Assembly (NCBI RefSeq): GCF_037042905.1
Contig: NC_087245.1
Location: 17,610,001 to 17,674,000 of the forward strand
DNA length: 64,000 bases
Origin: Lytechinus pictus
Lineage: Eukaryota
Reading direction: 5' to 3'
The notes under the pieces are model-generated. The model did no database searches. It was not told where the DNA came from and saw only the letters and a program-made list of their open reading frames with translations. Both the position numbers and the translations under genes were made by a program. Of this stretch, positions 17,533-62,382 are shown one piece after another. Within the stretch, counting starts at the first letter, position 1, and the number at the start of each line of letters is the position of its first letter.

Positions 17533-20500
17533 ATGGTAAGCTCATACTTTCTATTATTATTATTATTACTATTATCATTATTACTATTATCATTATCGCA
17601 GATTTCACACCCGTCATGATTTATCATGGACATAATTACGGTTTCATGATGTTTACTTTTACTTCTTAGGCCAATTTTCCATTTCCTTTCTTGGTCAATA
17701 AAAAAAAAATGAACTAAAATAGTTGCCTGTTATGTACATGTTGCACTCCTGTATTTGTCCCCCCCCCCCCCTCATCTCTCTCTCTCTATATATATATATC
17801 TCTCTCTCTCTCCCTCCTTGAACAGTCTTGAAAACAAGTCCTTATTCTTTTTTAATTTTCGATTTATTTAGGGAAAATTGATTTTGTATTCAGTTACGTC
17901 CATCACAATCGTCATGGAATTCTTAATTGATATCTCTTTCTGCTTCTTTCAGTCTGTCGTATGCTCATCACAGAGTTTGCCTATTTTCCTGTTCCTCATT
18001 GCAGTGAGTTTCGTTCATGGTGGTAAGTTTGAATTTGATATTTTGACCCTTTTTTATTTGTATTGATTATCATGATTACAAACAAAACATCTCATAATTA
18101 CTGTAGACAAAAAGAAAAACAACAGAAAAAATAACTAAAATAATAATCAGAATAACAATATCAATAAGAATATAAAGTGACCCGGTTTTTAATCATACAC
18201 TTCTTATAATATTTTTGCGATACATAAATCGCGGTATAATCTGTGAAGAGAATGTAATGTTGGATTGTAAACACTCGGAATGATCACGAATGTTTTATAG
18301 ATCCCGTGATCCCACTTTTATTTTTTGTAACTTCCAGTTTAGTTCATACTTCAGTACTTTACATATTTAAAAGAAATATTAGGGGAAACGCATAAACGAT
18401 CAAAATTACCGTCTTGTCGATTTTTTTTTACAATACAGTTGCTGAATTAAAAGAGCTTTGCGACCCAGACCCTGTATTATGTAAGAACATCACTCTATCT
18501 GGAGGGAGATCGATTCAACTCATTCCAAGATTAGCATCAACATCAAACGATCCTGAACCAGTTCTGGTAAAACTCCCATCTTGGCGCCATTTTGTCTGTG
18601 TTTTACCGAAAAGAAATGGTGAGTGCATAAAAACGATCTTCTACAGATATTTTAGACATGATAGGCCTATGTCCCCTTATATCATAAGATTTCGCAAAAA
18701 TATTTTCTAGGCTATTTGGATTACTGTTGCTCATTTCACCTTTCTTTAGATGGGTATTATGACCGGTTCCCTCGAGCCATTTGGCGCATCTACCTCCCGG
18801 ATCTTCCTGTTCCTATAATATGCTAAAGAGATACTGTAACCGGCGTGTGGTCTATCGTGTTTAAATATTTCTGGAGGAGCTGCATCTGTTACAGGTGCTC
18901 TTCGAATTGTTATTTTTGTGTGACATTGTAGAGTTTTGCTTCTGACCAAATTGCTTTGTTGCACCAAATATGCAAAAGTCTATACATGTTATTCATTGGC
19001 AGCGGAACGGTTTTGAAAGGGGGTGGGGCTGAACATACATAAAATCGCAATCATGGTCATTTTTGCGTTTTTGTACAAAGTTTTAGGAAAAGTGGGGCTG
19101 AAGCCCCTAGCACCCCCCCCCCCCCCCGTTCAGTGAGCCATGTTAATCTGTAAATGTGGAAGGGTCTGGTTATTTACAGACTTCATTATTAACTTTTCCC
19201 CTTGTTTGTCCTTCATTTCGGATCGTGCTTTCCTACTATCTTTTGCAAAGAGCGATTTTGTACGATTCGTATTGACTGCATCCTATGCAGTCTGCTTCCT
19301 TTTCTTGAACCATGGACCGTGTTTATCAGTGTTTCGTAAATATCTTATCGAGAATAGTACTTCTATACAATGTGCCTTTACACTATCTTCTATAGGCCGG
19401 CCAGACCGGATTCGTTAATGTTTTTGTTCTCTTCCATCATCATGATCATGTGTCCATGTTTCTACTACAGGAAGTTCTGTCCCAACACAATCACCATCCG
19501 TAAATAGTTTTTTAATTAGCATTATTATATCGTCTTTGTATTATTATGTCAATATCGTAGAGAATCCTACGGATACATCACCACCACTAGAAACTCTCGA
19601 TGGAGGAAGTTCGACAACCTCGCCAGAAATTTCATCCAGTGGATCAACTGAAGCTTCGTCAGAACAAGCAATGTCAGGCTCAGTAACTACTCCATCAGAA
19701 CCTACGACCAATGGTAAAACAAGCCCCCAGCCCCCCTTCTCGGTTCCGTGCCCATAATAATCTGTAAAAGCTCCATGGTTAAAGTGATAGGGTCTGATAA
19801 TACTTCCATAATGATTTTCCTCGTTTGTCCTTTATGTCGGATCATGCATTCCTCCTAACCTTTTTGCAGTTAGGTATCGCGATATTGTACGATTCTTATT
19901 GACCCAATCCTGTGCAGTCTTCTTCCTTTCCTTGAACCATGGATCATGTTTTTCATTGTTCCTTTAATGTCTCATCGAGAATAGTACTGCTATCAATGTT
20001 TCTTCTAGACCAGACGGGTTTTGCTAATGTTTTTGCTCTCTTCCATTCATCTATGATCTTCCATGTTTCTCCTACACGAAGTTCTTTCCCAACACAATCA
20101 CCATCGGTAATTGTTTTTTATGTCAATATCGTATAGATACTCCCATGGATGCATCACCGCCCCAAGAAACTCCTGGTGGAGGAAGTTCGACAACTTCACC
20201 AGAACTTTCTTCCAGTGGATCAACTGAAGCTTCGTCAGAACAAGCAATGACCCCAATGACAGGCTCTTCAACTACTCCATCAGAACCTACGACCAATGGT
20301 AAATCAAGCCCCCAGCCCCCCTTCTCGGTTCCGTGCCCATAATAATCTGTAATAGCTCCATGGTTAAAGTGATAGGGTCTGATAACACTTCCATAATGAT
20401 TTTCCTCGTTTGTCCTTTATGTCGGATCATGCATTCCTCCTAACCTTTTTGCAGTTAGGTATCGCGATTTTGCACGATTCTTATTGACCCAATCCTGTGC

Positions 20501-23500
20501 AGTCTTCTTCCTTTTCTTGAACCATGGATCATGTTTTTCATTGTTCCTTTAATGTCTCATCGAGAATAGTACTGCTATCAATGTTTCTTCTAGACCAGAC
20601 CGGTTTTGCTAATGTTTTTGCTCTCTTCCTTTCATCTATGATCTTCCATGTTTCTCCTACACGAAGTTCTTTCCCAACACAATCACCATCGGTAATTGGC
20701 TTTTATGTCAATATCGTATAGATACTCCCATGGATGCATCACCACCCCAAGAAACTCCTGGTGGAGGAAGTTCGACAACTTCACCAGAACTTTCTTCCAG
20801 TGGATCAACTGAAGCTTCGTCAGAACAAGCAATGACCCCAATGACAGGCTCTTCAACTACTCCATCAGAACATACGACAGACGATGCAGCGACAACTTTG
20901 TCACACCCTACAACAATTCCTTCTACGGAGGCTTTACCTGAAACCACAACAAAAGGAACTTCAGGTGTGAATTCGTGTAAGACGCTCTATTCAATGGGGC
21001 ATCAAACAAGTGGTGTCTATGCCATCTCTCCTAGCGGTGTGGGACTGACCGATGTCTACTGCGATATGACCACCGATAGCGGAGGGTGGACAATCTTCCA
21101 GGTACGTTCCGCCAGGTTCTCGGTGTGAAATGAATCTATCCGATGTTTATGTTTTATTAAGATGGTCAATATTTTTGCTTAATCGCATCTTTTTTTTTCG
21201 TTTTTCTTTTCTTTTCTTTTTTTAAAAGAACTTTTGCTCTATCCACCATTTCATTCTGGCCTCTTCATCATGTTAATATAGGCCAAATAAGTAGAATTTT
21301 GTAGACTTGCTCGCTTCGCCCGCTCACAATTTTTCTGAAATATTCCAACGTATCTAAACTCAACCTTCTCTTGCACGCTCACTATTCGATAATTTTTTTT
21401 CACATATCACATCCTTCACAATAATAATATGCATACAGAAACGTTATGACGGATCTGTGGATTTTTACCGCAATTATACCGAGTATGTTCGTGGATTTGG
21501 TGACGTCGAGGGCGAATACTGGTTGGGATTAGACCAACTCTACTTACTTGCTAAAGATGGAGTCGAACTCAGAATCGATATGGTTGATTACGATAACAAT
21601 CCATTCTACGCTCATTATGGCAGTTTTAGCATTGGAAGTACCAACACCAAGTAAGGTTCTTACAATTTTCCTTCGCTATAATTATAGAGAGAGCGTATGG
21701 AAAACGTTACATTTTGGAAAAGCTGTCAAAATTACGCTTATTAATGAAGTATCATTGTGTAATATCTCTAAAATCTTCTCTATTAGATGACACCACGAGA
21801 TATTTTGTTCATGCTTGAGCGCAAAACGACATGTTTTATCAGGGTGACGAGAATGGCTTGCACCATAATGAAGGAATGGGCAGTCAAATCAAATTATTTG
21901 CTCGAGTTATTAAGATCTTTTCACATACTATTTATTCTTGATTAGTACAGGATAGAAGAGGCATAACCTTGTTTTTACATATATATTATATTTTTTGATG
22001 GTTTATTGTCAATTTTAGAGTGCTGATTGCGAATCTGAATGATGCCACTCGTGTAACCTTGAGCATTTTCCGCAAATTGGCAAAATCCAATATGGCCGCC
22101 AAAATATGCAAATTACCAATGGAAATGCCCGCACATTGGCAACAAAATGCATGAAATTGTGTGGCAGGAGTGAAATACTCGCTGAAAAAATAATTTTTGA
22201 CAAAATATTTATTTTCTGGATCATAATGGCCGCCATAGGCCTCTGTATACTCTATTATGTACAACATGAATAGGGAAAACTTCACAAAAAATGAGCACTA
22301 AACTGCAAGAAATCGTGATCTATGAACGAAATTCTGTATGCAAATCGTCATTACTAACGAGATATATCATTTATTATATCATGTATGGGAACATTTCTGT
22401 ATTTTGATATTTAAAATAGCCGCCACTGGCCAAAACAGTATTATGTACAATGGCAAAGGGGGCCAAAAAAACCCACAAGAGTGAGCACTAAAATGCATAT
22501 TATTAAGATAAACGAGTGGAATACTGACTAAAAACATAATTGTTAGCGAAATTTATCATTTAATATGCCATGTATGTGATAAATGTTGTATTTTGATATT
22601 CAAAATTGCTGCCTAAGACCCTAACAGTATTATGTACAATGAGAAAGAGGACCAAAGAAATTACAAGAGGTGGCACTAAAATGCATATGTATGTGATAAA
22701 GTTACGTAATACTGTCTAAAAAAAACCATAATGAATATTCGTAGTACACGTAAATGGAGTAGATCTCCAACGAAATATAGTTTGTGTTAAATACTGTATT
22801 TTGAATTTCAAAATGGCCGCCATAGACATTGACTGTATTATGTATAATGCGAACTGGGAAACTAATATTCACAGGAGTGAGCACCATAAATGTACGTTAT
22901 AGTGATCCATGAGTAAAATATTGCCTGAAAGCATAATTTCTAACAAGATATATCATTTATTCTGCCAGTTAGGTGACAAATACTGTATTTTAAAAGTAAA
23001 AATGGCTACTACAGGCCCTTACGGTATATTATGTACCATGTAAATGGAAAAACATGATTTCAACAGATTTTGGCTTTGCTTGACTGAATGGTGTTGTATG
23101 AGTGAAATATTGTCTGAAAACATCATTTATAACAAGATATATCATATCTTGTGTAATTTAGGTGATAAATACTGTATTTAAACATTCAAAATGGCCGTCA
23201 TATGCCCTTTTGTGAAAATTATCTGTCCACATTCAAATTGACGATAAGGGCCTATGATGGCTATTTTCAATTTCAAAATGCAGCATTTTCAACTTAATTA
23301 CAGAAGATATGATATATCTCGGCAGAAACCATGGTTTTAGACAATATTTCACCCTTACATCACAATTATATGCAATATTTATAGTCAAGCAAAGCCAAAT
23401 TCTGTCAAAATTATATGTCACATGTTCCTATGTACATAATACTTTTAGGACCTATGGCAGCAATTTTGGATTTCAAAGTATACAGCATTTATTACCTCCA

Positions 23501-26500
23501 TGACCAATATGTGATGTATGTAGTTAGAAATCATGTTTAAGACAATATTTTTAATCGTACATAACAGTTACATGCATTTTATGATTCTCACTCTTGTGAA
23601 AATTAGTTTGGTTAGGGCTTGTAGCGGCTATTTTGAATGTCAAAATACAGTATTTATCACCTACATGGCAGAAGAAATGCTATAATTCCTTCAAAATTAT
23701 GTTTTCAAATAATATTTTACTCATACAACAGGATTATATGGATTTCATAGTCAAGCAAACCCAAATTCTTACAAAATTATATGTCCCCATTTACATTCTA
23801 GATAATACTGTTAGGGCCTTTATGGGCCAATTTTGAATTTCACAATACAGCATTTATCTCATGCATGACAAAAGAAATGATATGCCTCGCTAGAAAACAT
23901 GTTTTCAGACAAAATTTTACTCGTAGATCACAATTACATGCATTTTATGTTTCTTACTCTTGTGAAAAATAGTTTCTCCATTTGCATTGTACATAATAAA
24001 TATAGGGCCCATGGCGGCCATTTTGAATGTCAAATTATAGCATTTATCACATACATGGCATAATGAATAATATCTTTTGTTAACAATTCTGTTTTTAGTC
24101 AGTATTCCACTCGTTTATCTTAATAATATGCATTTTAGTGCTCACTCTTGTGAATTTTTTGGCCCCCATTGCCATTGTACATAATACTGTTTGGGCCAGT
24201 GGCGACTATTTTAAATATCAAAATACAGCAATTTTCCCATACATGACATAATATATATATCTCGTTAGTAATGGTGATTTGCATACTGTACTTCGTTCAT
24301 ATATCACGATTTCTTGCGGTTTAGTGCTCATTTTTGTGAAAATGAGTTTTCCCTATTCATGTTAAAAATAATAGAGTTTACAGAGGCCTATGGCGGCCAT
24401 TTTGAATATCCAGAAAATAGATATTTTGTCAAAAATTATTTTTTCAGAGAGTATTTCACTCCTGCCACAAAATTTCATGCATTTATTGCTAATGTGCGGG
24501 CAATTTTTATGACTTTCATGGGTAATTCACATATTTTGGCGGCCGTATTGGATTTTGCCAATTTGTGGAAAATGCTCAAGGTTACACGAGTGACATCATT
24601 CAGATTCGTAATCAGCACCCTCGAATTGACAAGCAACCATAAAAAAATATTGTATATATGAAAAAACAAGGTTCGTCAATTTTCTATGGGGCCAATCCTG
24701 GACTAAATCATGCTTAAAACAGCGGACAATAGACATTTTAAAAATCTATTTTGGGTATTCACATACGTGATTTTGACAGCTTTTTCAAAATGAAACGTTT
24801 ATCGTTCATCAAATTTTGATTTTTGTTTATATTGCTTATGTAATTCTACATTACACATTACTACCGAACCAACAGCAACGGTAATTATCATTTCCCTAAT
24901 CATCCCCGGGTAATTTGTGCCTTGTCACTCACGGGAAACCCCCCCCCCCCCCCCCCCGCTCGTAATCGCGATATCTGCGCGATGGCGGAAAATGACGGTT
25001 GCATCTTAGCAAACTTTCACTAAATCTATATTATCTTGTCCCATACACGGATTAACTATTTTTTTAAACTATGTTTTTTTATGGAATTTTTCGTCGATAC
25101 TTCAAAGTGCTATTTAAATCGAATGTTACAAGGGCCGCGAAACCGAAGGGGGAGGGGCGGGTGTTGCTTCATCTCTCCCAGTATTTAACCATTTTCACAA
25201 AGAGTGAAAATGACCAACGATTTTATGCTTGCCCCCCCCCCCCTCGCTTTCCATATCGTTCTGCAGCCCCTCTGTAAAAAGATACAGTTACTAATTTTGA
25301 CTAGAAACAGAGTTTACATTGGATTTGTGCATGAAATCACTTTTTTATAGCAAATTTGGGCCTAACAATAACCATGAACAGATGACCAATAAACAAATTA
25401 CGATAATTTAAGGGGTACTCCAGGCTGAAAATGATATGATTTAAAAAAGATTTAAAAAAAATAGACAAACAAAACACTGAAGAATTGTTTGAAAATGGAC
25501 AAGGAATAAAAAAGTTATGACATTATATAGATTTGCATTATTTCGGTGAAACAGTTCTAAACATGTCTTCATGAGTAGACCGATAATATCATATCCCCAC
25601 TTGTTCTTTTGTATTTTTTTACATGAAAGTATGTTTATTCATTTTTTTCTTTAAGAACAAAATATAAAAGGATAGACAATTGATATAATATTTGAGATAT
25701 TCATGGCTGCAACTTATTTTATAATGATAAAGATATATCACACACACATGTATGAAAATATGAAATAAATATGATTTCATGTAACAACATAAAAAGGTAA
25801 AGTGGGGAGGTGACATCATCAGCCCACCTACTGAATATTCATGCAACGTTCATATAACTGTTTCACAATATTGCTGAATTTTACTATAGGCAAATATACT
25901 TAGATATAATAATTTTCAACCCGAAGTAACCCTTTATTCTGATGTTGATTACATTTTCAATGTAATGCTTGTTTAAATTTATTTCAAAGTAAATGAATAA
26001 AGATATTAATGGATGAATTGAAAAAAAATAGATAAAATATAATGACGTGACAAAAAATTAATGAATTACAAAATAATATTTATGCACGGAGCATTTTTCA
26101 ACTTAGGGGCCCTACGAAAATAAGAAGTAAAAATAAAGGTGCTGATACTTAGAACCTCGGGTGCGATACGTCAGACATATTTTCATTATATTTTCTCTTC
26201 AATCGCAATCTTGAATTTACATGACTGTTTTAAGGTTCTATATAGTCTTAGACTAAATTAAATTTAATGTATGTATTTACTATCTTCAACAAAGCTACCG
26301 AATCGGGTTTTCATCATATACCGGTACTGCAGAAGAAGGGCTAGATGCAGCCAACGGACAAGCCTTCTTAACTTATGACAATGACCATGATGATTGTGCT
26401 TTTCTGTACAGAGGGGCGTGGTGGTATAACGACGTATACTGTGATACCACAGCCAACTTGAATGGGGATCACGGACTCCAATATGGTTTTACAGGGATTT

Positions 26501-26556
26501 TTTGGGATTTCCCTAACTCAAAATACATGAGAGCTACAGAAATGAAGTTAAGATGA
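17533..26556 (+). CDS. Secreted mucin-stalk fibrinogen-related protein (FReD; ficolin/MFAP4/tenascin-C-terminal-like), copy A
   Basis: Manual exon model with GT/AG junctions and consistent phases: 17533-17535 (ATG|gtaagc), 17953-18022 (signal peptide SVVCSSQSLPIFLFLIAVSFVHG), 18439-18618, 19561-19713, 20137-20298, 20722-21101 (mucin then SCKTL..SGVYAISP..VYCDMTTDSGGWTIFQ), 21439-21650 (KRYDGSVDFYRNYTEYVRGFGDVEGEYWLGLD..LRIDM), 26295-26556 (YTGTAEEGL..NGQAFLTYDNDHD..GAWWY..NLNG..TEMKLR*). Total 1422 nt, 473 aa, open frame. The FReD motifs are unambiguous; the N-terminal exons are less certain. Confidence 0.88.
19175..20870 (+). repeat. 585-bp intron+exon tandem repeat (3 units) building the mucin stalk; also ~59930-61605; 2 units in copy B
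   Basis: Exon starts at 19561, 20137, 20722, with homologous preceding introns. Confidence 0.92.
21943..24705. mobile_element. Academ-like non-autonomous foldback element in the last intron of copy A
   Basis: TAG..CTA ends (tagtacaggat / atcctggacta) and ~1-kb imperfect inverted arms with internal repeats. The 3-bp TSD AAT is preserved in copy B. Confidence 0.7.
25411..25933. mobile_element. Old Kolobok-like MITE in the last intron (copy ~42561-43306)
   Basis: Ends aggggtactccaggctgaaaat / attttcaacccg(a/g)agtaaccct with degenerate TTAA-like flanks. Confidence 0.5.
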
Positions 26557-27357
26557 TCGGATTGATCCATGTTGTTGTCATTCCTTTCTACCTAATTTTT
26601 GAAGTTCTTATACATAGTTATTTTAAAGCACAATGTAGTCCAAGTGATTGTGTATATTAGAGAATCACTTGAAAAACAGGAATAAGCAATTTAAACATAT
26701 TTCATGTAATGATCTATATCTATAATGGATTTCATGTCAACATGGTAACACGAACATGGGCCTCATGTTTCGGAGGGGGGGGGATGGGCTGCTCACGTAT
26801 AATGGTAGAACCGGTACGTGGCTCTTAAGACCCCTTTTCACTCATTGACCAACCCGTTCTCCCTCGCTCATTCATGTCCTAACTAAGCCCTTTATTTTAT
26901 TCGTCAGTTCTCGATGACCACATTTCATTGTAAATTCCACCCACCCCCCCCCCCAAAAAAAAAATGCAGAACTTCAGTTCTTATGAGTATGGCATCTGAT
27001 TTTCTGGCCAAACATCCGTATCCTTTCCAATCCGAGTGGGGGGGGGGGTGCCTCTCACTGAAAACCAGTCCAGAATGATAGTCCTTTCTCAAGAGCTTTC
27101 AAGACACTGGACCCTGGTTCATTTCACACCTTAAGGGCGCCACCTATTGCTGTTCTTTACCAGGAAACGAAACAAAACTGTTTATTCATATTTATTTATC
27201 AAAACCTAATAGACAATCATTATTCGGAGTTGTTAAAACTCATATTAGTGAAAAGTGCGTAAGTTTCAATATTTTACATCAAATCCAGACAATAACAGAC
27301 TGTCATGAAAATAGCATTTTTCTCGTGACAATTTTATTTCCACTCTACAAAATCCCA

Positions 27358-27575
27358 GCCATGGCGTAATTTCTTTCAGCAAGAAATTTATCCACATTGT
27401 GCTGCACTCAACCCAGGTGAGGTGAATGGGTACCCGGTAGGAAGAAATTCCTTGAATGCTTGAGCAGCCCAGCTAAAGCCAGGGTAATAATAATAGCAGG
27501 GCCTGCTGGGAGAACAGTTTTCAGAACTGAAGTGGCTTCCCTGTGTAAATATACCTATATAACTATATTATTATA
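27358..27575 (+). mobile_element. 5'-truncated SINE relic (copy ~44735-44952)
   Basis: Core cactcaacccaggtgaggtgaatgggtacc resembles conserved metazoan tRNA-SINE core domains and is followed by an (ATT)-like tail. Recognised from memory, not by database search. Confidence 0.55.
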
Positions 27576-30458
27576 AAATACGTACCTTTTAAATTTATCT
27601 TTGATACAACCGATGTAGAAGAAGCTTGGCTATTATAGTATGACGTATAAATTTATATGTCTCTCTCTCTCACTTACACACTCTCCCCTGCATTATTTTC
27701 TATTATTCATGCCATGTAAGTAGACTTAAGTTCTTGACGAAATACTGTTATCTTTTTGTTTATCTGCTTATATTCCTCAAATTGTATATTTGTTTTGCAT
27801 AACCTTGTATTTTTGTTTTTAACAAAATATTGGCGAATGCTAGTGATGCTCTAATAATAAATTCAGTTCAATTCATGTTAGCAGTAAACAAACATACTCC
27901 AAGGAAGAAAAAAACGAGCTCGGTCTAAAGTCTGTCCTTGGATGTACGACGAGTTAATTAGTGAGATGAATAGACGAAATAAGTTTCATAAAATGATATT
28001 AAAGTATAATTGCTCAGAATAAACTGACAATGGACAAAACATCGAGAATTATCGTTTACCCTTTCAAGCCACTTTAAATTTTAATGTGGAAGTGTGTGGA
28101 CATTTGTAAAATGTTGATTTATAACTTGTCAAATTTTGAGGATTTTCACATTTTTGAACTGTCTGACTGTTATTATACCATATTTCACCCAATTTCTGGA
28201 TATATTAATGTTTTGATATATATTTCTTCATGTGTTAATTTAATATCCACATTTTGTGATCAAATAAAATTGGAAATATTCGCAATTATCTATTTTCAAC
28301 AAAACTCACTTTTCAGTTTTCCCATGAACAGATGAAACTGGCGACATCACGGGTCGCCAACAAAGGCTACATTGCACCTGTGTATTCTTTTGTACTTCTT
28401 TATGAATCGAAAGCTACATGAATAAATTTGCATTTCGTTGACACTCCATCTTTTTTACCTCGATGGAATTATCGACCAATTTCTCTCCTTAGTTATAATT
28501 TTTATCGAAGATTCAAGAGAGAGCTGTAGTTGCGTAACTATGGGGGGGGGAGAGATAACGGAGGAAAAAGAAGAGAATTGAGGAAGGAAGAAAGAGAGAC
28601 ATTGTGACAGACATTGTGGGAAATGAAAGAAGGGGAATGTAAGTAATCTTATTTTGATAATTTGATGAAAAATAATGTGCATAGGGTCTATGTGCTCATC
28701 ACTCCTGGTGCTCATATTGTCTGATTAGATACATAATCCCGTTCAAGAGGATTAAATGGAGCAATGCATTTTCAAGTCATACACCAAATATTTTTCCTCG
28801 AGCGCTCGTCAGGCCTAATTCGCTTTGTGAATTAGGATATCCCTCGCTTCGCTCGGGAAGCAGCCGCCAGGGCCTCGACAAGAGGCTACGTCAGTGGCTG
28901 TTCAGACAGCAGCATCAAATGCAGCACCATCAACCGGAAAAATTATGCAATAAAAATGATTTCTACAGGAGCACCTCAAGGCTCAGTCCTTGGGCAGCTG
29001 CTATTTACCATCTTTATTAACGATCTACCAATACAAGTCGAGACGTTTTTTCATGTACTGTTGTAATGTTTGGTCTAATCGATTTCTAAACAATAACGAA
29101 ATAAGCACATAACGAAATAAGCACAATAACGATGAGCACATAGACCCTATGCACATTATTTTTCATCAACTGCACAAGCGTGCAGCGTATAGGGCTATTA
29201 GCCTATATCCGGTTTCTCTTGGATGACCCCATCAAAACACGTATTTTATCAACTTACAACCAGCACAAAAAAATGTTGATTTGATTTGAATAAAAAGAGA
29301 AAATCAAACAAGCATAACACTTAAAATTTCATCAGAATCGGTTGTAAAATGAGAAAGTTATGAAATTTTAAAGTTTTGCTTAATTTCACAAAACAGTTAT
29401 ACGAATACTGGTCGGTATGCAAATGAGGAGACTGGTGATGCCATCCACTCACTATTTCTTTGTATTTTAGTATATGAAATATGTAATATTCTCATTTTCT
29501 CCTCATCGTCAAGTGAAATAACGATTAATTCCTCCCTGAACCCGTGGAATTAACATTGTATAGATGTGGACGTCATTGGACGAAGCGGGTATTGGACGAA
29601 ACTGGGTCGACGGACGAACTGACGGACAATTTGGTCGAAATGATTATGTCGGGGCACTGTGGGCAATGGTAATGGACCTGAATCAGCAAAGCCCCCCCCC
29701 CCCAAAAAAAAAAAAAAAACGAAAGAAGGAAGGAAAGAAAAATGGGCTAAGGTAATCAATTTCAATGGGGTTTTATTGACCAAATGTCGTATATTCCCTG
29801 GAATCTTTCCGTCAACTGACAAAAGACACCTTTGTTTCAAGACTCGTAAAATTTACAACATTTTTAGGCGTAATTCATATATTCCCATGTCCCACTTTTT
29901 TAATACATTTTTTTGTTATTTATCTGCATCTTCACTTCGTTGTTGCGTTGTATTAAGTTATACTAATTGTCTTGTTATTGTATTTCTATATCATAAAAGC
30001 CAAGTCCACCCCAACAATCAAGAAGTGGATTTGGAGAAAGTGGAGAAAAATCTCGGAGAAAAATCAAACTACTATAATTATAACGCTGCATCATGAGACG
30101 GCTAGTCTGATTGGAGGTTTACTAGGCATTTAATTAATTAAAGTTCTCATCGAGGAAAAGTTCTTCATCACGGTCAAGTGTTAAATAATACTTGATCGAG
30201 AGCTCAATATCTCTCTAAACTATTGTGGCGGCAGCATACTATTTTTAAAAGGTTATTTTGATAGAGTCTCGCGTTACAATAGAGACGGACACATTACCTC
30301 AAAAGGCAAATCCTTGATGGGCCTATTTAAAGTGACCCATTTTGCAAATTGCATGTCTTTTCTCTAAACACTCTGTTGGGACGGATCTGAGTATTTATGA
30401 ATTTGGTGGAGAAAATGTTATGTTTCTCTTTAAAAAAAATTTTTTTTAATCTTTTAAA

Positions 30459-37500: not shown

Positions 37501-40500
37501 CCACCTTGTTAGGTGCTCAAGGCGCTCCTATATTACCCGGCTAAGCTAGGCGTTCTTCCATGTTCCTACAGGAAGTTCTGTCCCAACACAATCACCATCG
37601 GTAATTGTTTTTTATGTCAATATCGTATAGATACTCCCATGGATGCATCACCACCCCAAGAAACTCCTGGTGGAGGAAGTTCGACAACTTCACCAGAACT
37701 TTCATCCATTGGATCACCTGAAGCTTCGTCAGAACAAGCAATGACCCCAATGACAGGCTCTTCAACTACTCCATCAGAACCTGCGACCAATGGTACAACA
37801 ATATATTCGCAGGAACATACGTCAGGTTATTCGACAACTCCATCAGAACATACGACAGACGATGCGGCTACAACTTTGTCACACCCTACAACAATTCCTT
37901 CTACGGAGGCTTTACCTGAAACCACAACTAAAGGAAATTTAGATGTGAATTCATGTAAGATGCTCTATTCAATGGGGCATCAAACAAGTGGTGTCTATGC
38001 CATCTCTCCTAGCGGTGTGGGACTGACCGATGTCTACTGCGATATGACCACCGATAGCGGAGGGTGGACAATCTTCCAGGTACGTTCCGCTAGGTTCTCG
38101 GTGTGAAATGAATCTATCCGATGTTTATGTTTTATTAAGATGGTCAATATTTTTGCTTAATCGCATCTTTTTTTTCCCTTTTTTTTTAATTTTTTTTAAA
38201 AAGAACTTTCGCTCTATCCACCATTTCATTCTGGCCTCTTCATCATGTTAATATAGGCCAAATAAGTAGAATTTTGTAGACTTGCTCGGTTCGCCCGCTC
38301 ACAATTTTTCTGAAATATTCCAACGTATCTAAATTCAACCTTCTCTTGCACGCTCACTATTCGATAATTTTTTTCACATACCACATCCTTCACAATAATA
38401 ATGTGCATACAGAAACGTTATGACGGATCTGTGGATTTTTACCGCAATTATACCGAGTATGTTCGTGGATTTGGTGACGTCGAGGGCGAATACTGGTTGG
38501 GATTAGACCAACTCTACTTACTTGCTAAAGATGGAGTCGAACTCAGAATCGATATGGTTGATTACGATAACAATCCATTCTACGCTCATTATGGCAGTTT
38601 TAGCATTGGAAGTACCAACACCAAGTAAGGTTCTTACAATTTTCCTTCGCTATAATTATAGAGAGAGCGTATGGAAAACGTTACATTTTGGAAAAGCTGT
38701 CAAAATTACGCTTATTAATGAAGTATCATTGTGTAATATCTCTAAAATCTTCTCTATTAGATGACACCACGATATATTTTGTTCATGCTTGAGCGCAAAA
38801 CGATCAGAGTGACGAGAATGGCTTGCGCCATAATGAAGGAAATGGGCAGTCAAATCAAATGATTTGCTCGAGTTATTAAGATCTTTTCACATACTATTTA
38901 TTCTTAATTAGTACAGGATAGAAGAGGCATAACCTTGTTTTTACATATATATTATATTTTTTGATGGTTTCTTGTCAATTTGAGGGTGCTGATTACGAAT
39001 CTGAATGATGCCACTCGTGTAACCTTGAGCCTTTTCCACAAATGGGCAAAATCCAATATGGCCGCCAAAATATGCAAATTACCCATGAAAATCATAAAAT
39101 TGCCCGCACATTGGCAACAAAATACATGAAAGTGTGTGGCAGGAGTGAAATACTCGCTGAAAAAATAATTTTTGACAAAATATCTATTTTCTGGATCATA
39201 ATGGCCGCCATAGGCCTCTGTATACTCTATTATGTGCAACATGAATAGGGAAAACTAATTTTCACAAAAAATGAGCACTAAACTGCAAGAAATCGTGATC
39301 TATGAACGAAGTTCTGTATGCAAATCGTCATTACTAACGAGATATATCATTTATTATATCATGTATGGGAACATTTCTGTATTTTGATATTTAAAATAGC
39401 CGCCACTGGCCAAAACAGTATTATGTACAATGGCAAAGGGGGCCAAAAAAATCACAAGAGTGAGCACTAAAATGCATATTATTAAGATAAACGAGTGGAA
39501 TACTGACTAAAAACATAATTGTTAGCGAAATTTATCATTTAATATACCATATATGTGATAAATGTTGTATTTTGATATTCAAAATTGCTGCCTAAGACCC
39601 TAACAGTATTATGTACAATGAGAAAGAGGACCAAAGAAATTACAAGAGGTGGCACTAAAATGCATATGTATGTGATAAAGTTACGTAATACTGTCTAAAA
39701 AAAAAAAACATAATGAATATTCGTAGTACACGTAAATGGAGTAGATCTCCAACGAAATATAGTTTGTGTTAAATACTGTATTTTGACTTTCAAATTGGCC
39801 GCCATAGACATTGACTGTATTATGTATAATGCGAACTGGGAAACTAATATTCACAGGAGTGAGCACCATAAATGTACGTTGTAGTGATCCATGAGTAAAA
39901 TATTGCCTGAAAGCATAATTTCTAACAAGATATATCATTTATTCTGCCAGTTAGGTGACAAATACTGTATTTTAAAAGTAAAAATGGCTACTACAGGCCC
40001 TTACGGTATATTATGTACCATGTAAATGGAAAAAAAATGATTTCAACATAATTTGGCTTTGCTTGACTAAATGGTGTTGTATGAGTGAAATATTGTCTGA
40101 AAACATCATTTATAACAAAAATATATCATATCTTGTGTAATTTAGGTGATAAATATTGTATTTAAACATTCAAAATGGCCGTCATATGCCCTTTTGTGAA
40201 AATTATCTGTCGTCATTCAAATTGACGATAAGGGCCTATGATAGCTATTTTCAATTTCAAAATGCAGCATTTTCAACTTAATTACACAAGATATGATATA
40301 TCTCGGCAGAAACCATGGTTTTAGGCAATATTTCACCCTTACATCACAATTATATGCAATATCTATAGTCAAGCAAAGCCAAATTCTGTCAAAATTATAT
40401 GTCACATGTTCCTATGTACATAATACTTTTAGGACCTATGGCAGCCATTTTGGATTTCAAAGTATACAGCATTTATTACCTCCATGACCAATATGTGATG

Positions 40501-43500
40501 TATGTAGTTAGAAATCATGTTTAAGACAATATTTTTAATCGTACATAACAGTTACATGCATTTTATGATTCTCACTCTTGTGAAAATTAGTTTGGTTAGG
40601 GCTTGTAGCGGCTATTTTGAATGTCAAAATACAGTATTTATCACCTACATGGCAGAAGAAATGCTATAATTCCTTCAAAATTATGTTTTCAAATAATATT
40701 TTACTCATACAACAGGATTATATGGATTTCATAGTCAAGCAAACCCAAATTCTTACAAAATTATATGTCCCCATTTACATTCTAGATAATACTGTTAGGG
40801 CCTTTATGGGCCAATTTTGAATTTCACAATACAGCATTTATCTCATGCATGACAAAAGAAATGATATGCCTCGCTAGAAAACATGTTTTCAGACAAAATT
40901 TTACTCGTAGATCACAATTACATGTATTTTATGTTTCTTACTCTTGTGAAAAATAGTTTCTCCATTTGCATTGTACATAATGAATATAGGGCCCATGGCG
41001 GCCATTTTGAATGTCAAATTATAGCATTTATCACATACATGGCATGATGAATAATATCTTTTGTTAACAATTATGTTTTTAGTCAGTATTCCACACGTTT
41101 ATCTTAATAATATGCATTTTAGTGCTCACTCTTGTGATTTTTTTGGCCCCCATTGCCATTGTACATACTACTGTTTGGGCCAGTGGCAGCTATTTTAAAT
41201 AATAAAATACAGCAATTTTCCCATACATGACATAATATATATATCTCGTTAGTAATGGTGATTTGCATACTGTACTTCGTTCATATATCACGATTTCTTG
41301 CGGTTTAGTGCTCATTTTTGTGAAAATGAGTTTTCCCTATTCATGTTGTACATAATAGAGTTTACAAAGGGCTATGGCGGCCATTTTGAATATCCAGAAA
41401 ATAGATATTTTGTCGAAAATTATTTTTTCAGAGAGTATTTCACTCCTGCCACAAAATGTCATGCATTTATCGCCAATAAGCGGGCAATTTTGTGACTTTT
41501 ATGGGTAATTCAAATATTTTGGCGGCCATATTGGATTTTGCCAATTTGTGGAAAATGCTCAAGGTTACGCGAGTGACATCATTCAGATTCATAATCAGCA
41601 CCCTCGAATTGACAAGCAACCATAAAAAAATATTGTATATATGAAAAAACAAGGTTCGTCAATTTTCTATGGGGCCAATCCTGGACTAAATCATGCTTAA
41701 AACAGTGGACAATAGAAATTTAAAAAATCTATTTTGGGTATTCACGTACGTGATTTTGACAGCTTTTTCAAAATGAAACGTTTATCGTTCATCAAATTTT
41801 GATTTTTGTTTATATTGCTTATATAATTCTACATTACACATTACTACCGAACCAACAGCAACGGTAATTATCATTTCCCTAATCATCCCCGGGTAATTTG
41901 TGCCTTTTCACTCCCGGTTCACCCCCCCCCCCCCCCCTCCGCTCGTAATCGCGATATCTGCGCGATGGCGGAAAATGACGGTTGCATCTTAGCAAACTTT
42001 CACTAAATCTATATTATCTTGTCCCATACACAAATTAACTATCTTTATTTGTGCTATGGAAGTAGAATTTGGGGGTAAATCTATCGATAAAGCCATCGAA
42101 AAACTTTTTTTTCAGAGACTCTTTGTATCTAGGATTGTTATAAATATGCATACACATAAAATGTTTTCTTAAGTGGGTCTTTTTATCGTTGTGTTTTTCC
42201 TGTTTATTTATTTTTTTTAACTATGTTTTTTCATGGAATTTTTCGTCGATACTTGAAAGTGCTATTTAAATCGAATGTTACAAGGGCCGCGAAACCGAAG
42301 GGGGGGGCGGGTGGCGCTTCATCTCTCCCAGTATTTAACCATTTTCACAAAGAGTGAAAATGACCAACGATTTTATGCATGCCCCCCCCCCTCGCTTTCC
42401 ATATCGTTCTGCAGCCCCTCTGTTAAAAGATACAGTTACTAATTTTGACTAGAAACAGAGTTTACATTGGATTTGTGCATGAAATTACCTTTTTTAAGCA
42501 AATTTGGGCCTAACAATAACCATGAGCAGATGACCAATAAACCGTGAATTACGATAATTTAAGGGGTACTCCAGGCTGAAAATGATATGATTTGAAAAAG
42601 ATAAAGAAAAAATAGACAAACAAAACACTGAAGAATTGTTTGAAAATGGACAAGGAATAACAAAGTTATGACATTATATAGATTTGCATTATTTATTTCA
42701 TATTTTCATACATGTGTGTGTGATATATCTTTATCATGATAAAATAAGTTGCAGCCATGAATATCTCATATATTATATCAATTGTCTATCCTTTTATATT
42801 TTGTTCTTAAAGAAAAAAATGAATAAACATACTTTCATGTAAAAAAATACAAATGAACAAGTGGGGATATGATATTATCGGTCTACTCATGAAGACATGT
42901 TTAGAACTGTTTATTACGGTGAAACAGTTCTAAACATGTCTTCATGAGTAGACCGATAATATCATATCCCCACTTGTTCTTTTGTATTTTTTTACATGAA
43001 AGTATGTTTATTCATTTTTTTCTTTAAGAACAAAATATAAAAGGATAGACAATTGATATAATATATGAGATATTCATGACTGAAACTTATTTTATCATGA
43101 TAAAGATATATCACACACACATGTATGAAAATATGAAATAAATATGATTTCATGTAACAACATAAAAAGGTAAAGTGGGGAGGTGACATCATCAGCCCAC
43201 CTACTGAATATTCATGCAACGTTCATATAACTGTTTCACAATATTGCTGAATTTTACTATAGGCAAATATACTTAGATATAATAATTTTCAACCCGGAGT
43301 AACCCTTTATTCTGATGTTGATTACATTTTCAATGTAATGCTTGTTTAAATTTATTTTAAAGTAAATGAATAGAGATATTAATGAATTAATTGAAAAAAA
43401 ATAGATAAAATATAATGACGTGACAAAAAATTTATGAATTACAAAATAATATTTATGCACGGAGCATTTTTCAACTTAGGGGCCCTACGAAAATAAGAAG

Positions 43501-43932
43501 TAAAAATGAAAGTGCTGATACTTAGATCCTCGGGTGCGATACGTCAGACATATTTTCATTATATTTTCTCTTCAATCGCAATCTTGAATTTACATGACTG
43601 TTTTAAGGTTCTATATAGTCTTAGACTAAATTCAATTTAATGTATGTATTTACTATCTTCAACAAAGCTACCGAATCGGGTTTTCATCATATACCGGTAC
43701 TGCAGGAGAAGGGCTAGATGCAGCCAACGGACAGGACTTCTCAACCTATGACAATGACCATGATGACACCAGGGCTAATTGTGCTTCTCTGTACAAAGGG
43801 GGGTGGTGGTATAACGACTGTTATACAGCCAACTTGAATGGGATACACGGACTCCAAACTGGTTTGACAGCGATTATTTGGGATTTCTCTGACTCAAAAT
43901 ACATGAGAGCTACAGAAATGAAGTTAAGATGA
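34591..43932 (+). CDS. Secreted mucin-stalk fibrinogen-related protein, copy B (intact only if exon 3 is skipped; otherwise a pseudogene)
   Basis: Exons 34591-34614 (MKKTSVIM), 35016-35085, [35558-35739 with TAA at 35563-35565 and a +2 nt frameshift], 36647-36799, 37631-38079, 38413-38624, 43668-43932 (FSTYDNDHDDTRANCASLYKGGWWYNDCYTANLNG..TEMKLR*). Without exon 3 the frame is open: 1173 nt, 390 aa. Confidence 0.75.
36877..37188. mobile_element. 312-bp MITE, GGCCC ends, 3-bp TSD ATA (Harbinger- or Zator-like), copy B only
   Basis: TIR ggcccgtattctgaagtc / gacttcagaatacgggcc. Empty site aaagtg-ata-gggtctg in A and C. Confidence 0.85.
37458..37553 (-). mobile_element. Short retroposon 3'-end insertion with (AAT)n tail, copy B only
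   Basis: About 95 bp starting with (ata)n, absent from the paralogous introns (tctatgat-cttccatg). Confidence 0.5.
38909..41688. mobile_element. Academ-like element, copy B
   Basis: aat-tagtacagg..cctggacta-aat. Confidence 0.72.
42691..43143. repeat. 222-bp inverted duplication with a 9-nt loop, copy B only
   Basis: 42691-42912 is the reverse complement of 42922-43143. A has a single copy. Confidence 0.9.
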
Positions 43933-60800: not shown

Positions 60801-62382
60801 TTTCTCCTACACGAAGTTCTTTCCTAACACAATCACCATCGGTAATTGGTTTTTATGTCAATATCGTATAGATACTCCCATGGATGCATCACCGCCCCAA
60901 GAAACTCCTGGTGGAGGAAGTTCGACAACTTCACCAGAACTTTCTTCCAGTGGATCAACTGAAGCTTCGTCAGAACAAGCAATGACCCCAATGACAGGCT
61001 CTTCAACTACTCCATCAGAACCTACGACCAATGGTAAATCAAGCCCCCAGCCCCCCTTCTCGGTTCCGTGCCCATAATAATCTGTAATAGCTCCATGGTT
61101 AAAGTGATAGGGTCTGATAACACTTCCATAATGATTTTCCTCGTTTGTCCTTTATGTCGGATCATGCATTCCTCCTAACCTTTTTGCAGTTAGGTATCGC
61201 GATTTTGCACGATTCTTATTGACCCAATCCTGTGCAGTCTTCTTCCTTTTCTTGAACCATGGATCATGTTTTTCATTGTTCCTTTAATGTCTCATCGAGA
61301 ATAGTACTGCTATCAATGTTTCTTCTAGACCAGACCGGTTTTGCTATTGTTTTTGCTCTCTTCCTTTCATCTATGATCTTCCATGTTTCTCCTACACGAA
61401 GTTCTGTCCTAACACAATCACCATCGGTAATTGTTTTTTATGTCAATATCGTATAGATACTCCCATGGATGCATCACCACCCCAAAAGACTCCTGGTGGA
61501 GGAAGTTCGACAACTTCACCAGAACTTTCATCCAGTGGATCAACTGAAGCTTCGTCAGAACAAGCAATGACCCCAATGACAGGCTCTTCAACTACTCCAT
61601 CAGAACATACGACAGACGATGCAGCGACAACTTTGTCACACCCTACAACAATTCCTTCTACGGAGGCTTTACCTGAAACCACAACAAAAGGAACCTCAGG
61701 TGTGAATTCGTGTAAGACGCTCTATTCAATGGGGCATCAAACAAGTGGTGTCTATGCCATCTCTCCTAGCGGTGTGGGTCTGACCGATGTCTACTGCGAT
61801 ATGACCACCGATAGCGGAGGGTGGACAATCTTCCAGGTACGTTCCGCCAGGTTCTCGGTGTGAAATGAATCTATCCGATGTTTATGTTTTATTAAGATGG
61901 TCAATATTTTTGCTTAATCGCATCTTTTTTTCGTTTCTCTTTTCTTTTCTTTTTTTAAAAGAACTTTTGCTCTATCCACCATTTCATTCTGGCCTCTTCA
62001 TCATGTTAATATAGGCCAAATAAGTAGAATTTTGTAGACTTGCTCGCTTCGCCCGCTCACAATTTTTCTGAAATATTCCAACGTATCTAAACTCAACCTT
62101 CTCTTGCACGCTCACTATTCGATAATTTTTTTCACATATCACATCCTTCACAATAATAATATGCATACAGAAACGTTATGACGGATCTGTGGATTTTTAC
62201 CGCAATTATACCGAGTATGTTCGTGGATTTGGTGACGTCGAGGGCGAATACTGGTTGGGATTAGACCAACTCTACTTACTTGCTAAAGATGGAGTCGAAC
62301 TCAGAATCGATATGGTTGATTACGATAACAATCCATTCTACGCTCATTATGGCAGTTTTAGCATTGGAAGTACCAACACCAA
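57606..62382 (+). CDS. Secreted mucin-stalk fibrinogen-related protein, copy C (3' partial; last exon lies beyond the window)
   Basis: Exons 57606-57629 (MKKTSVIM), 58046-58115, 58582-58761, 60296-60448, 60872-61033, 61457-61836, 62171-62382. All are in frame and nearly identical to copy A. Confidence 0.85.
59341..59923. mobile_element. 583-bp Kolobok-like MITE, TTAA TSD, copy C only
   Basis: ttaa-aggagaatgaaac..gtttcattctcct-ttaa. Empty TTAA at 19189-19192 in A. Internal inverted repeat also present. Confidence 0.88.

What the first reader, a model, noticed from the sequence alone, without database searches (positions are those of the whole stretch)
26295..26556. Hypervariable ligand-binding P subdomain: 14 replacements and 3 in-frame indels versus 2 silent changes between A and B
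Manual alignment of 26295-26556 with 43668-43932 gives E/G, A/D, L/S, F/S, R/K, A/G, D/Y, D/I, Y/T, F/L, G/A, F/I, P/S, N/D. There are also indels of 12, 6 and 3 nt, all frame-preserving, and only caa/cag and act/acc are synonymous. The preceding FReD exon (212 nt) is identical in A, B and C, and the flanking intron and 3' UTR are nearly identical, so this coding exon is more divergent than its non-coding neighbours. Known: this segment forms the Ca2+ and acetyl-group (S1) site in ficolins and tachylectin-5A. Inference: strong diversifying selection on ligand specificity. This exon is missing from the ORF track.
Basis: partly seen in the sequence, partly recalled or inferred. Interest (0 to 1): 0.85.

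Follow-up and report, generated by a model that had tools for sequence, protein, structure and literature searches.

The report
Hypervariable binding-site exon in urchin lectin array
The last exon of a tandem family of sea-urchin fibrinogen-type lectin genes varies strongly at the positions that bind ligand in related lectins, while the DNA around it stays almost identical, a pattern already known from other immune gene families.

Summary
A (26295-26556) and B (43668-43932) differ by 21 substitutions plus 21 gapped columns, all in frame. That gives 14 replacement codons and 2-4 silent ones. The flanking intron and 3'UTR differ by about 2%, and the 212-nt exon before it is identical in A, B and C.

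The exon is the P subdomain (PF00147) of a secreted lectin: signal peptide, Ser/Thr-rich stalk, FReD. NCBI names proteins identical to these exons as Lytechinus pictus. The genome holds 11 intact copies and at least one broken copy in a 300-kb tandem array. All 11 exons are open, and every length difference is a multiple of three.

Across copies, exon 3 shows at least 56 replacement and at least 8 silent changes. Omega is about 1.5-1.9 by tree-free counts (not significant) and 2.4-3.0 by maximum likelihood. Variable sites coincide with homologues of the FIBCD1/TL5A Ca2+ loop and S1 pocket.

The interpretation needs correcting. Exon and flank genealogies are decoupled: A has g02-like flanks but a g06-like exon, and C is A-like 5' but B-like 3'. 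Recently duplicated pairs have identical exons. The pattern therefore reflects cassette lineages under diversifying selection, moved by short-tract gene conversion within a homogenised array, not a burst after duplication. The canonical acetyl pocket is not conserved. This is a new member of a known kind.

The parts
26295..26556 (+). Gene A, last exon (phase 1, stop TGA 26554-26556): FReD P subdomain, 'A-type' cassette
   Evidence: Pfam PF00147 E 2.1e-9, profile positions 121-219 of 221. Identical to the C-terminus of NCBI model P0009. A contig in run X1 joins the end of exon 2 to 26295.
26333..26534 (+). Hypervariable core of the exon (first to last substitution between gA and g02)
   Evidence: 20 substitutions and 3 indels lie here between gA and g02, whose flanks differ at 5 of about 1640 sites. 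pi is 0.06-0.13.
26155..26600 (+). Tract shared by gene A and paralogue g06 (1 difference, at 26469), bounded by mismatches at 26154 and 26601: inferred gene-conversion tract
   Evidence: gA vs g06 has 1 substitution in the exon and 36 in the flanks; identical run 26154-26469, per-pair p=0.008.
21439..21650 (+). Gene A, FReD exon 2 (212 nt), nearly invariant in the array
   Evidence: 0 differences in 8 of 11 copies. Tree-free N 4/168, S 2/42.
20722..21101 (+). Gene A, exon with the last Ser/Thr-rich repeat and the start of the FReD
   Evidence: Tree-free N/S rate ratio 0.31.
19200..20878 (+). Three 585-bp units, each holding a Ser/Thr-rich stalk exon (copy number differs between genes and isoforms)
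   Evidence: Self-BLAST, ORFs, protein models P0001-P0009.
17953..18021 (+). Gene A, signal-peptide exon (part)
   Evidence: tblastn of P0001 residues 9-31, 100% identity.
26557..27290 (+). Gene A 3'UTR, nearly identical among copies
   Evidence: X1 contig depth 108-290 over 26268-27291, against 0.8-5.8 in the intron. pi 0.003-0.037 in 60-nt windows.
43668..43932 (+). Gene B, last exon: 'B-type' cassette with canonical FReD spacing
   Evidence: Pfam E 1.4e-17. Ungapped alignment to TL5A 172-228 and FIBCD1 131-188. Identical to the last exon of gene C just outside the window.
38413..38624 (+). Gene B, FReD exon 2
   Evidence: tblastn 100% identity. 0 differences from A.
62171..62382 (+). Gene C, FReD exon 2 (its last exon lies beyond the window, at G000:C1:17677437-17677697)

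Best explanation
The finding is the ligand-site exon of one member of a young, recombining tandem array of secreted lectin genes. The array has at least 11 intact copies and some dead ones over about 300 kb. NCBI names the identical proteins as Lytechinus pictus. Each protein has a signal peptide, a short Cys-containing N-terminus, a Ser/Thr-rich stalk of variable length and one fibrinogen-related domain.

Recent duplication, unequal crossing-over and gene conversion keep the genes, introns and UTRs about 97-99% alike. The roughly 200-bp core of the last exon instead exists as several distinct 'cassettes'. These differ by replacement substitutions and in-frame indels at the loops homologous to the Ca2+ site, the disulfide-linked helix and the S1 pocket of FIBCD1, TL5A and the ficolins.

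Shown:
- the excess variation, its mostly nonsynonymous and in-frame character, and its location;
- the mosaic genealogies;
- splicing and transcription of the exon.

Inferred:
- diversifying selection on ligand specificity keeps cassettes different while the rest is homogenised;
- short-tract conversion moves whole cassettes and sub-patches between genes. A's cassette is shared with g06 inside a g02-like gene.

A vs B is therefore a comparison of two cassette lineages. The A type has lost the 4-residue loop that supplies two Ca2+ ligands in FIBCD1 and has its second Cys displaced by two residues, so its site is probably remodelled.
For: Array and family:
- 12 last-exon copies and 15 matches to the exon1-2 stretch, 12 of them (near) full length, on one contig.
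- A protein search of the genome finds the same 12 last-exon places and no others at E<=1e-6; 29 candidates were scored.
- PF00147 is the only Pfam family found.
- The AF2 FReD model has pLDDT 93-98. Foldseek TMt is 0.83-0.92 to ficolins, FIBCD1, tenascin and TL5A.

Hypervariability:
- pi profile.
- Tree-free minimum changes per site: exon 3 N 0.25, S 0.135; flanks 0.057 (UTR, all 11) to 0.108 (intron, all 11), both 0.057 without g01; exon 2 0.028.
- Exon 3 N:S is 50:7 against 16:15 in exons 1+2; Fisher p=5e-4.
- All 11 ORFs are open, with lengths 256-265 nt that differ only by multiples of 3.
- My own ML codon models give M0 omega 2.4-3.0 (p 0.002-0.008 vs omega=1). M2a beats M1a with 2dlnL 24.7-43.6 in four data variants.

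Location:
- 12 of 13 columns homologous to FIBCD1 residues named as Ca2+, S1 or ligand contacts are variable, against 27 of 78 other columns; p=1.1e-4.
- Without g01 the counts are 10/13 vs 23/78; p=0.0017.

Recombination:
- gA-g02: 9/1/20/4 differences in upstream / intron / exon 3 / UTR. gA-g06: 28/14/1/17. gC equals gB in the 3' part but is A-like in the 5' part (13 vs 48 differences).
- PHI p=0.001. Rmin is at least 7 in the exon and at least 17 in 1.9 kb.
- Sawyer-type runs are significant in 4 of 54 pairs after Bonferroni correction.
- The youngest duplicates (gB/gC, g04/g11) have 0 exon differences.

Expression: an X1 contig joins exon 2 to 26295, and its depth is 25-50x higher on the exon and UTR than on the intron.
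Against: - Recombination-robust counts do not reach significance for omega>1 over the whole exon: ratio 1.5-1.9, binomial P 0.07-0.19.
- The A/B pair alone gives omega 0.88.
- Site-model likelihood-ratio tests are known to give false positives under recombination, which is abundant here. Multi-nucleotide codon changes can also inflate omega.
- Only 7-8 silent events exist, so the age of the cassettes relative to the flanks is poorly resolved.
- The synonymous rate in exon 3 (0.135) is about the same as in exon 1 (0.105-0.137). Old cassette lineages are therefore not proven.
- The S1 mapping after residue 60 depends on gapped sequence alignments. I could not measure clustering on coordinates.
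- There are no binding, population or challenge-expression data.
- Two raw RNA runs (X23, X24) gave almost no reads on the exon.
Confidence: 0.68

Rival explanations
1. After a recent duplication, strong positive selection drove a burst of replacements in this exon, while the neutral flanks had no time to diverge.
For: Exon 3 replacement rate is 3.6-4.4 times the flank rate. ML omega is 2.4-3.0 with a class at omega about 11. Indels are in frame.
Against: The most recent duplicates have identical exons: gB/gC 0 differences, g04/g11 0 differences. gA differs from g02 by 20 exon substitutions, with 5 flank differences, yet matches g06 in all but one of them. The changes were therefore imported, not newly made. 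A/B omega is 0.88 by NG86. PHI and run tests show recombination. The nearest L. variegatus protein shares the g01/g02 cassette type, 71 of 84 residues against 57-66 for the others.
Confidence: 0.14
2. Relaxed constraint without positive selection. The loops of this exon tolerate almost any change (omega about 1), and conversion among copies creates the contrast with the flanks.
For: Tree-free omega of 1.5-1.9 is not significantly above 1. The same loops are poorly conserved across 66 distant FReD proteins. Likelihood-ratio tests are unreliable under recombination.
Against: All 11 frames are open and at least 6 indel events are all multiples of three; the chance is about 0.0014 if unconstrained. 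The three loop codons 34-36 carry at least 6 replacement states and 1 silent one. M0 omega is significantly above 1 in all four data variants. Homogenisation has not erased the cassettes although it erased differences in exon 2 and the flanks.
Confidence: 0.12
3. A targeted mutational process (deaminase-type hypermutation or error-prone repair aimed at this exon), germline or somatic, creates the variation.
For: Variation is sharply confined to about 200 bp. It includes clustered multi-nucleotide codon changes (GAT/ATA, GTA/TGT, TAT/ACT) and small indels. Run X1 holds a further in-frame variant.
Against: The transition:transversion ratio in the exon (24:24) does not differ from the flanks (46:59); Fisher p=0.49. 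Silent sites are not strikingly elevated compared with exon 1. Young duplicates are identical. There are no paired germline and somatic data.
Confidence: 0.05

Closest known systems
FIBCD1 / tachylectin-5A / M- and L-ficolin recognition domains (solved FReD lectins)
   Same: Same fold: Foldseek TMt 0.83-0.92, rmsd 1.8-2.4 A. The B-type exon aligns without gaps to TL5A 172-228 and FIBCD1 131-188. The two Ca2+ Asp residues and the first Cys are kept. The variable positions are the homologues of the Ca2+ loop, the helix carrying Tyr405, the Cys414-His415 turn, Tyr431/Ala432 and Trp443, as named in PMC3908420 (passages read).
   Different: No collagen-like or transmembrane part; the N-terminus is a Ser/Thr-rich stalk. 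Of the five S1 pocket residues only the Tyr405 equivalent is kept (8 of 11 copies). His415 is Tyr, Tyr431 is Gly/Asp, Ala432 is Leu/Phe/Val, and Trp443 is Ser/Thr/Pro. The A type lacks the 4 residues that hold the Ser397/Asn399 carbonyl ligands and has its second Cys shifted by two residues.
Lineage-specific, diversified FReD/FREP families of molluscs and other invertebrates (Biomphalaria FREPs, oyster FBG-domain genes)
   Same: Species-specific expansion of FBG-domain genes, and positive selection on pattern-recognition receptors. PMC8678459 (passages read) describes oyster FBGDC expansion and cites positive selection in Biomphalaria FREPs.
   Different: Snail FREPs carry IgSF domains, and their reported diversification concerns those (recalled, not checked here). 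Here there is no IgSF. The variable part is the P subdomain itself, and the host is an echinoderm. Four literature searches found no description of this array.
SpTransformer (Sp185/333) gene clusters of sea urchins
   Same: A clustered, highly similar immune gene family in an echinoid, with repeats and segmental duplications credited with rapid diversification. I saw only the abstracts of PMC5103432 and PMC8634487 in search listings. Here, minisatellites also sit at the unit borders.
   Different: An unrelated protein with no FReD. Its diversity lies in mosaics of repeat 'elements', not in loops of a folded lectin domain.
MHC-type pattern: homogenised introns with a hypervariable binding-site exon, maintained by selection and reshuffled by conversion
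   Same: Flanks are more alike than the binding-site exon. Exon and flank genealogies are decoupled. Patches are shared between otherwise different copies.
   Different: The comparison rests on my recall of the MHC literature, not on a paper read here. This case concerns paralogues in one haploid assembly, not alleles in a population.

Membership tests
Fibrinogen-related domain (Pfam PF00147, Fibrinogen_C) | Significant match to the family profile over the whole domain | tested here: met
   P0009 E 7.1e-49 (profile 4-219 of 221) and P0001 E 1.7e-57. The exons match separately as well.
Fibrinogen-related domain (Pfam PF00147, Fibrinogen_C) | FReD fold (A, B and P subdomains) | tested here: met
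   AF2 models have pLDDT 93-98 in the domain core. Loops 401-430 of A are at 81-85; the B P subdomain is at 90-98. Foldseek TMt is 0.83-0.92 to 30+ solved FReDs.
Ficolins | Collagen-like region N-terminal to the FReD | tested here: not met
   No collagen family hit in Pfam. The N-terminus is Ser/Thr-rich with no Gly-X-Y repeats in the sequences shown.
Acetyl-group-binding FReD lectins (TL5A, FIBCD1, M-ficolin S1 site) | S1 pocket residues Tyr405, His415, Tyr431, Ala432, Trp/Tyr443 (FIBCD1 numbering; PMC3908420) | tested here: not met
   By alignment the equivalents are Y/C, Y, G/D, L/F/V and S/T/P. Only the first is kept, in 8 of 11 copies. Alignment after residue 60 is gapped, so the last three are placed to within 1-2 residues.
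Acetyl-group-binding FReD lectins (TL5A, FIBCD1, M-ficolin S1 site) | Ca2+ site: two Asp side chains plus two main-chain carbonyls of the following loop | tested here: inconclusive
   The Asp393/Asp395 equivalents are present in 10 of 11 copies; g01 has G and S. The loop holding the carbonyl ligands is hypervariable in 8 copies and deleted in 3 (gA, g06, g10). Metal binding was not measured.
Acetyl-group-binding FReD lectins (TL5A, FIBCD1, M-ficolin S1 site) | Disulfide Cys401-Cys414 linking the Ca2+ site to S1 | tested here: inconclusive
   The first Cys is invariant. The second is at the canonical place in 9 of 11 copies by the MAFFT columns, though g10 carries extra residues on both sides of it. 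It is displaced by two residues in gA and g06. I could not check bond formation because no coordinates are returned.
Mollusc-type FREPs | One or two IgSF domains upstream of the FBG domain | tested here: not met
   No IgSF family in Pfam for P0009, P0001 or P0004.
Multigene family under concerted evolution with a selected hypervariable segment | Flanks more alike than the segment; discordant genealogies; recombination tests positive; replacement excess in the segment | tested here: met
   The replacement excess is significant against the other exons and by ML, but not by the tree-free test against omega=1.

The most novel reading that the evidence does not exclude
The array works as a cassette-exchange system. 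The invariant last ~130 bp of the intron, the first 38 nt of the exon and the start of the 3'UTR act as homology arms. Frequent short-tract conversion is thereby confined to the binding-site core. Individuals would then carry different, continually reshuffled repertoires of P-subdomain cassettes, possibly also somatically in coelomocytes. The A-type cassette would represent a new FReD site architecture, with the Ca2+ loop deleted and the disulfide partner moved.
Probability: 0.12. Interest if true: 0.8.

Novelty: new member of a known kind. Interest (0 to 1): 0.45.

Why it matters
This is a clean, compact example of how an invertebrate lectin family keeps binding-site diversity while the rest of the locus is homogenised. 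Eleven genes share near-identical introns and UTRs but carry nine different binding-site exons.

It is in a sea urchin, if the window is, as the identical NCBI proteins indicate, from Lytechinus pictus. From recall, that species is kept in culture and used for genetics, so the predictions can be tested directly:
- different glycan or microbe specificities for the cassettes;
- Ca2+ independence of the A type;
- variation in cassette repertoire between individuals.

It also serves as a caution. A 'divergent exon between identical flanks' is not by itself evidence of a selective burst. Here a conversion tract explains the contrast for gene A.

Tried and rejected
I did not ask again and worked from the 29 loci. 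Unit borders and the orphan copy L023 therefore remain unexamined.
- Earlier notes of this scan: none, either near the finding or for 'fibrinogen FReD' in this genome.
- Literature: four searches found no description of an echinoid FReD array or its hypervariable exon. This covers the held library only.
- RNA holders: the look-up of sequencing runs listed no holder on record as RNA. Raw RNA runs X23 and X24 gave almost no reads on the exon, with about 6% of each run read. I take neither as evidence on expression.
- A hypermutation signature was not seen: ts:tv is equal in exon and flanks.
- PHI within the exon loses significance without g01 (p=0.33), so intra-exon shuffling among the other copies is not shown by that test.
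- Three-dimensional clustering could not be computed because the structure tools return no coordinates. I used homology to residues named in PMC3908420 instead.
- No nucleotide data were available for the sister species, so trans-species dating of cassettes rests on one protein (P0007).
Full report
WHAT IS THERE

The window is G000:C1:17610001-17674000 of an 812-Mb eukaryotic assembly; its GC content is 36.9%.

Read in phase 1, the stretch 26295-26556 encodes the last 86 residues of a fibrinogen-related domain (FReD) and ends in TGA. Its counterpart at 43668-43932 encodes 87 residues. Pfam PF00147 matches both, A at E 2.1e-9 and B at E 1.4e-17, over profile positions 121-219 of 221. It also matches the two preceding exons at 20722-21101 and 21439-21650.

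Proteins identical to these exons are in the public protein collection as NCBI models named 'angiopoietin-related protein 7-like' or 'microfibril-associated glycoprotein 4-like' of Lytechinus pictus. P0009 is gene A. P0001 carries the B/C cassette. The architecture is a signal peptide, a short Cys-containing N-terminus, one to three Ser/Thr-rich repeat exons and one FReD. PF00147 is the only Pfam family found.

An ORF list misses the exon because its longest ORF with a start codon is 32 aa. A contig in run X1 joins the last bases of exon 2 to 26295. X1 depth is 108-290 on the exon and 3'UTR against 0.8-5.8 on the intron. The exon is therefore spliced and transcribed as annotated.

CHECK OF THE OBSERVATION

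A global alignment of 25538-28718 with 42911-46082 has 0-7 mismatches per 100 columns outside the exon. The two windows over the exon core have 7 and 14 mismatches plus 12 and 9 gap columns.

Codon by codon:
- 14 replacement codons, one of which depends on indel placement.
- 2 unambiguous and 2 alignment-dependent silent differences.
- Indels of 12 and 9 nt.

Nei-Gojobori averaging for A vs B gives dS 0.109, dN 0.096 and omega 0.88, with flank K of 0.019. This pair alone does not show dN/dS>1.

THE WIDER PICTURE

A DNA search of the genome found 12 copies of the exon with its flanks. A second search with the exon1-2 stretch gave 15 matches, 12 of them (near) full length. All lie in one tandem array at C1:17.50-17.80 Mb. 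A protein search found the same 12 places and no others at E<=1e-6; 29 candidates were scored.

Eleven copies are intact; I call them g01, g02, g04, g05, g06, gA, gB, gC, g10, g11 and g12. One last exon is broken by an insertion, one exon1-2 copy has no last exon nearby, and there are partial copies.

All 11 last exons are open, with lengths of 256-265 nt that differ only by multiples of three. They give nine distinct sequences.

Nucleotide diversity among the 11 copies:

| Region | pi |
|---|---|
| Exon 3 core, 26340-26519 | 0.06-0.13 |
| Preceding ~800 nt of intron | 0.005-0.048 (mostly 0.02-0.04) |
| Following ~1100 nt of UTR | 0.003-0.037 (mostly 0.01-0.03) |
| Exon 2 | 0.000-0.009 |

SELECTION

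Tree-free minimum counts over the 11 copies give at least 56 replacement and at least 8 silent state changes.

Minimum changes per site:

| Partition | Rate |
|---|---|
| Exon 3, N | 0.25 (0.21 without g01) |
| Exon 3, S | 0.135 |
| Flanks (intron 3' end and UTR) | 0.057 each without g01; 0.108 and 0.057 with it |
| Exon 2, all sites | 0.028 |
| Exon 1, N | 0.042 |
| Exon 1, S | 0.137 |

- The exon-3 N/S rate ratio of 1.5-1.9 is not significantly above 1 (binomial P 0.07-0.19).
- The N:S contrast with the other coding exons is significant: 50:7 against 16:15, Fisher p=5e-4.
- My own maximum-likelihood codon models, run on an IQ-TREE topology, give M0 omega 2.38, which differs from omega=1 at p=0.004. 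M2a beats M1a with 2dlnL=43.6, a class at omega about 11 and 31% of sites in it.
- Leaving out g01, masking indel-adjacent columns, or both gives omega 2.4-3.0 and 2dlnL 24.7-36.6.
- These tests assume no recombination, which is violated here. I treat them as supportive, not decisive.
- The transition:transversion ratio is the same in exon and flanks: 24:24 against 46:59, p=0.49.

WHERE THE CHANGES FALL

The B-type exon aligns without gaps to TL5A 172-228 and FIBCD1 131-188. The A-type exon aligns to FIBCD1 131-219 with gaps.

The FIBCD1 structure paper (PMC3908420, passages read) names these residues:
- Ca2+ ligands: Asp393, Asp395 and the carbonyls of Ser397 and Asn399.
- The disulfide Cys401-Cys414.
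- The S1 pocket: Tyr405, His415, Tyr431, Trp443 and Ala432.
- Further contacts: Glu398, Asn413 and Lys381 (equivalent to TL5A Arg186).

Of the 13 homologous columns, 12 vary among the copies, against 27 of the other 78 (p=1.1e-4). Without g01 the counts are 10/13 vs 23/78 (p=0.0017). Eight of the 11 sites with P(omega>1)>0.95 lie within one residue of such a column.

The family does not keep the acetyl pocket. Only the Tyr405 equivalent survives, as Y in 8 copies and C in 3. His415 is Tyr, Tyr431 is Gly/Asp, Ala432 is Leu/Phe/Val, and Trp443 is Ser/Thr/Pro.

The A type (gA, g06, g10) lacks the four loop residues that include both carbonyl ligands. In gA and g06 the second Cys sits two residues later; g10 has extra residues around it.

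AF2 models keep the fold in both types. In A the domain core has pLDDT 93-98 and residues 401-430 have 81-85. In B the P subdomain has 90-98. Foldseek TMt is 0.83-0.92 to ficolins, FIBCD1, tenascin Fg domains, MFAP4 and TL5A.

WHY THE FLANKS ARE SO ALIKE

The partitions have different genealogies. Differences are listed as upstream exon1-2 region / intron end / exon 3 / UTR:
- gA vs g02: 9 / 1 / 20 / 4.
- gA vs g06: 28 / 14 / 1 / 17.
- gC is A-like upstream (13 differences from gA, 48 from gB) but equals gB downstream (1 / 0 / 1).
- g01 has a divergent intron (47-53 differences) but a UTR only 4-5 differences from gB and gC.

Between gA and g02, 20 substitutions and 3 indels fall in 26333-26534, with 5 substitutions in about 1640 flanking sites. 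Between gA and g06 the identical tract runs from 26155 to 26600, with one difference at 26469.

Recombination tests:
- PHI is p=0.001 for the 1.9 kb, with or without g01.
- PHI is p=0.001 for the exon with all copies, but p=0.33 without g01.
- Rmin is at least 7 in the exon and at least 17 in 1.9 kb.
- A Sawyer-type run test is significant after Bonferroni correction in 4 of 54 pairs.

The two youngest duplicate pairs, gB/gC and g04/g11, have no exon differences. There is therefore no sign of rapid change right after duplication.

Gene A's cassette was evidently transferred between the gA and g06 lineages in a tract of 200-446 bp. The genes lie 29.6 kb apart.

The single close relative from another species is P0007 (L. 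variegatus). It shares 71 of 84 exon-3 residues with g01 and g02 but only 57-66 with the others. Cassettes within the array fall to 67% identity, while exon 2 differs between the species at 4 of 71 residues. This fits old or very fast-evolving cassettes. One protein cannot tell which.

VERDICT

The exon is a real, expressed, hypervariable binding-site exon. The variation is concentrated where related lectins bind Ca2+ and ligand, and it is dominated by replacements and in-frame indels.

The striking contrast with the flanks comes from concerted evolution and cassette transfer, not from a burst of change after duplication.

Lineage-specific, diversified FReD families are well known in invertebrates; PMC8678459 (passages read) gives an example. 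Clustered, recombining immune families are known in sea urchins; I saw only the abstracts of PMC5103432 and PMC8634487 in search listings. My searches found no description of this array. I file it as a new member of a known kind.

OTHER DATA SETS

Contigs in runs X1 and X2 match A-specific sequence exactly over 26334-26430 and 26351-26465. X1 also holds an A-like variant that lacks exactly codon 26434-26436 and has T>A at 26469. These runs may not be independent of the assembled animal.

Noticed in passing
window 5580-6532, 46124-46881, 52591-53437 (53-bp units); 1-155, 5333-5456, 46987-47168, 52344-52467 (16-bp units): Minisatellite arrays sit at or near the borders of the duplicated gene units; A/B homology ends at 28718/46082. 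They could be substrates for unequal crossing-over.
   Followed up: no
window 27350-27400: Raw RNA-read depth jumps above 3000 in X23 and X24, and the loose ends carry a tRNA-like consensus. This is probably a tRNA-derived SINE transcribed from many copies, lying just past the gene A 3'UTR.
   Followed up: no
L012 (G000:C1:17798229-17798565); L023 (C1:17552200-17553045); L027-L029: The array has dead members: a last exon broken by an insertion after about 41 codons, an exon1-2 copy with no last exon found nearby, and partial copies.
   Followed up: partly
window 19200-20878 and the homologous parts of genes B and C: The Ser/Thr-rich stalk is encoded by 585-bp intron-plus-exon units whose number differs between genes and isoforms. 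gB, g05 and g12 also have a FReD exon 1 that is 69 nt longer, 449 vs 380 nt.
   Followed up: partly
window 26434-26436 and 26469, in run X1: A contig carries an A-like cassette with a precise one-codon deletion (Val47) and Asp>Glu. It is one more in-frame variant at the same hot spot, intermediate between the gA and g10 forms.
   Followed up: partly
window 21965-24673 (intron 2 of gene A) and the homologous parts of B and C: The long intron holds inverted and direct repeat copies at about 78% identity (21965-23022 vs 24673-23611). These are presumably transposon remnants and account for the poor alignment and high apparent diversity in the middle of the intron.
   Followed up: no
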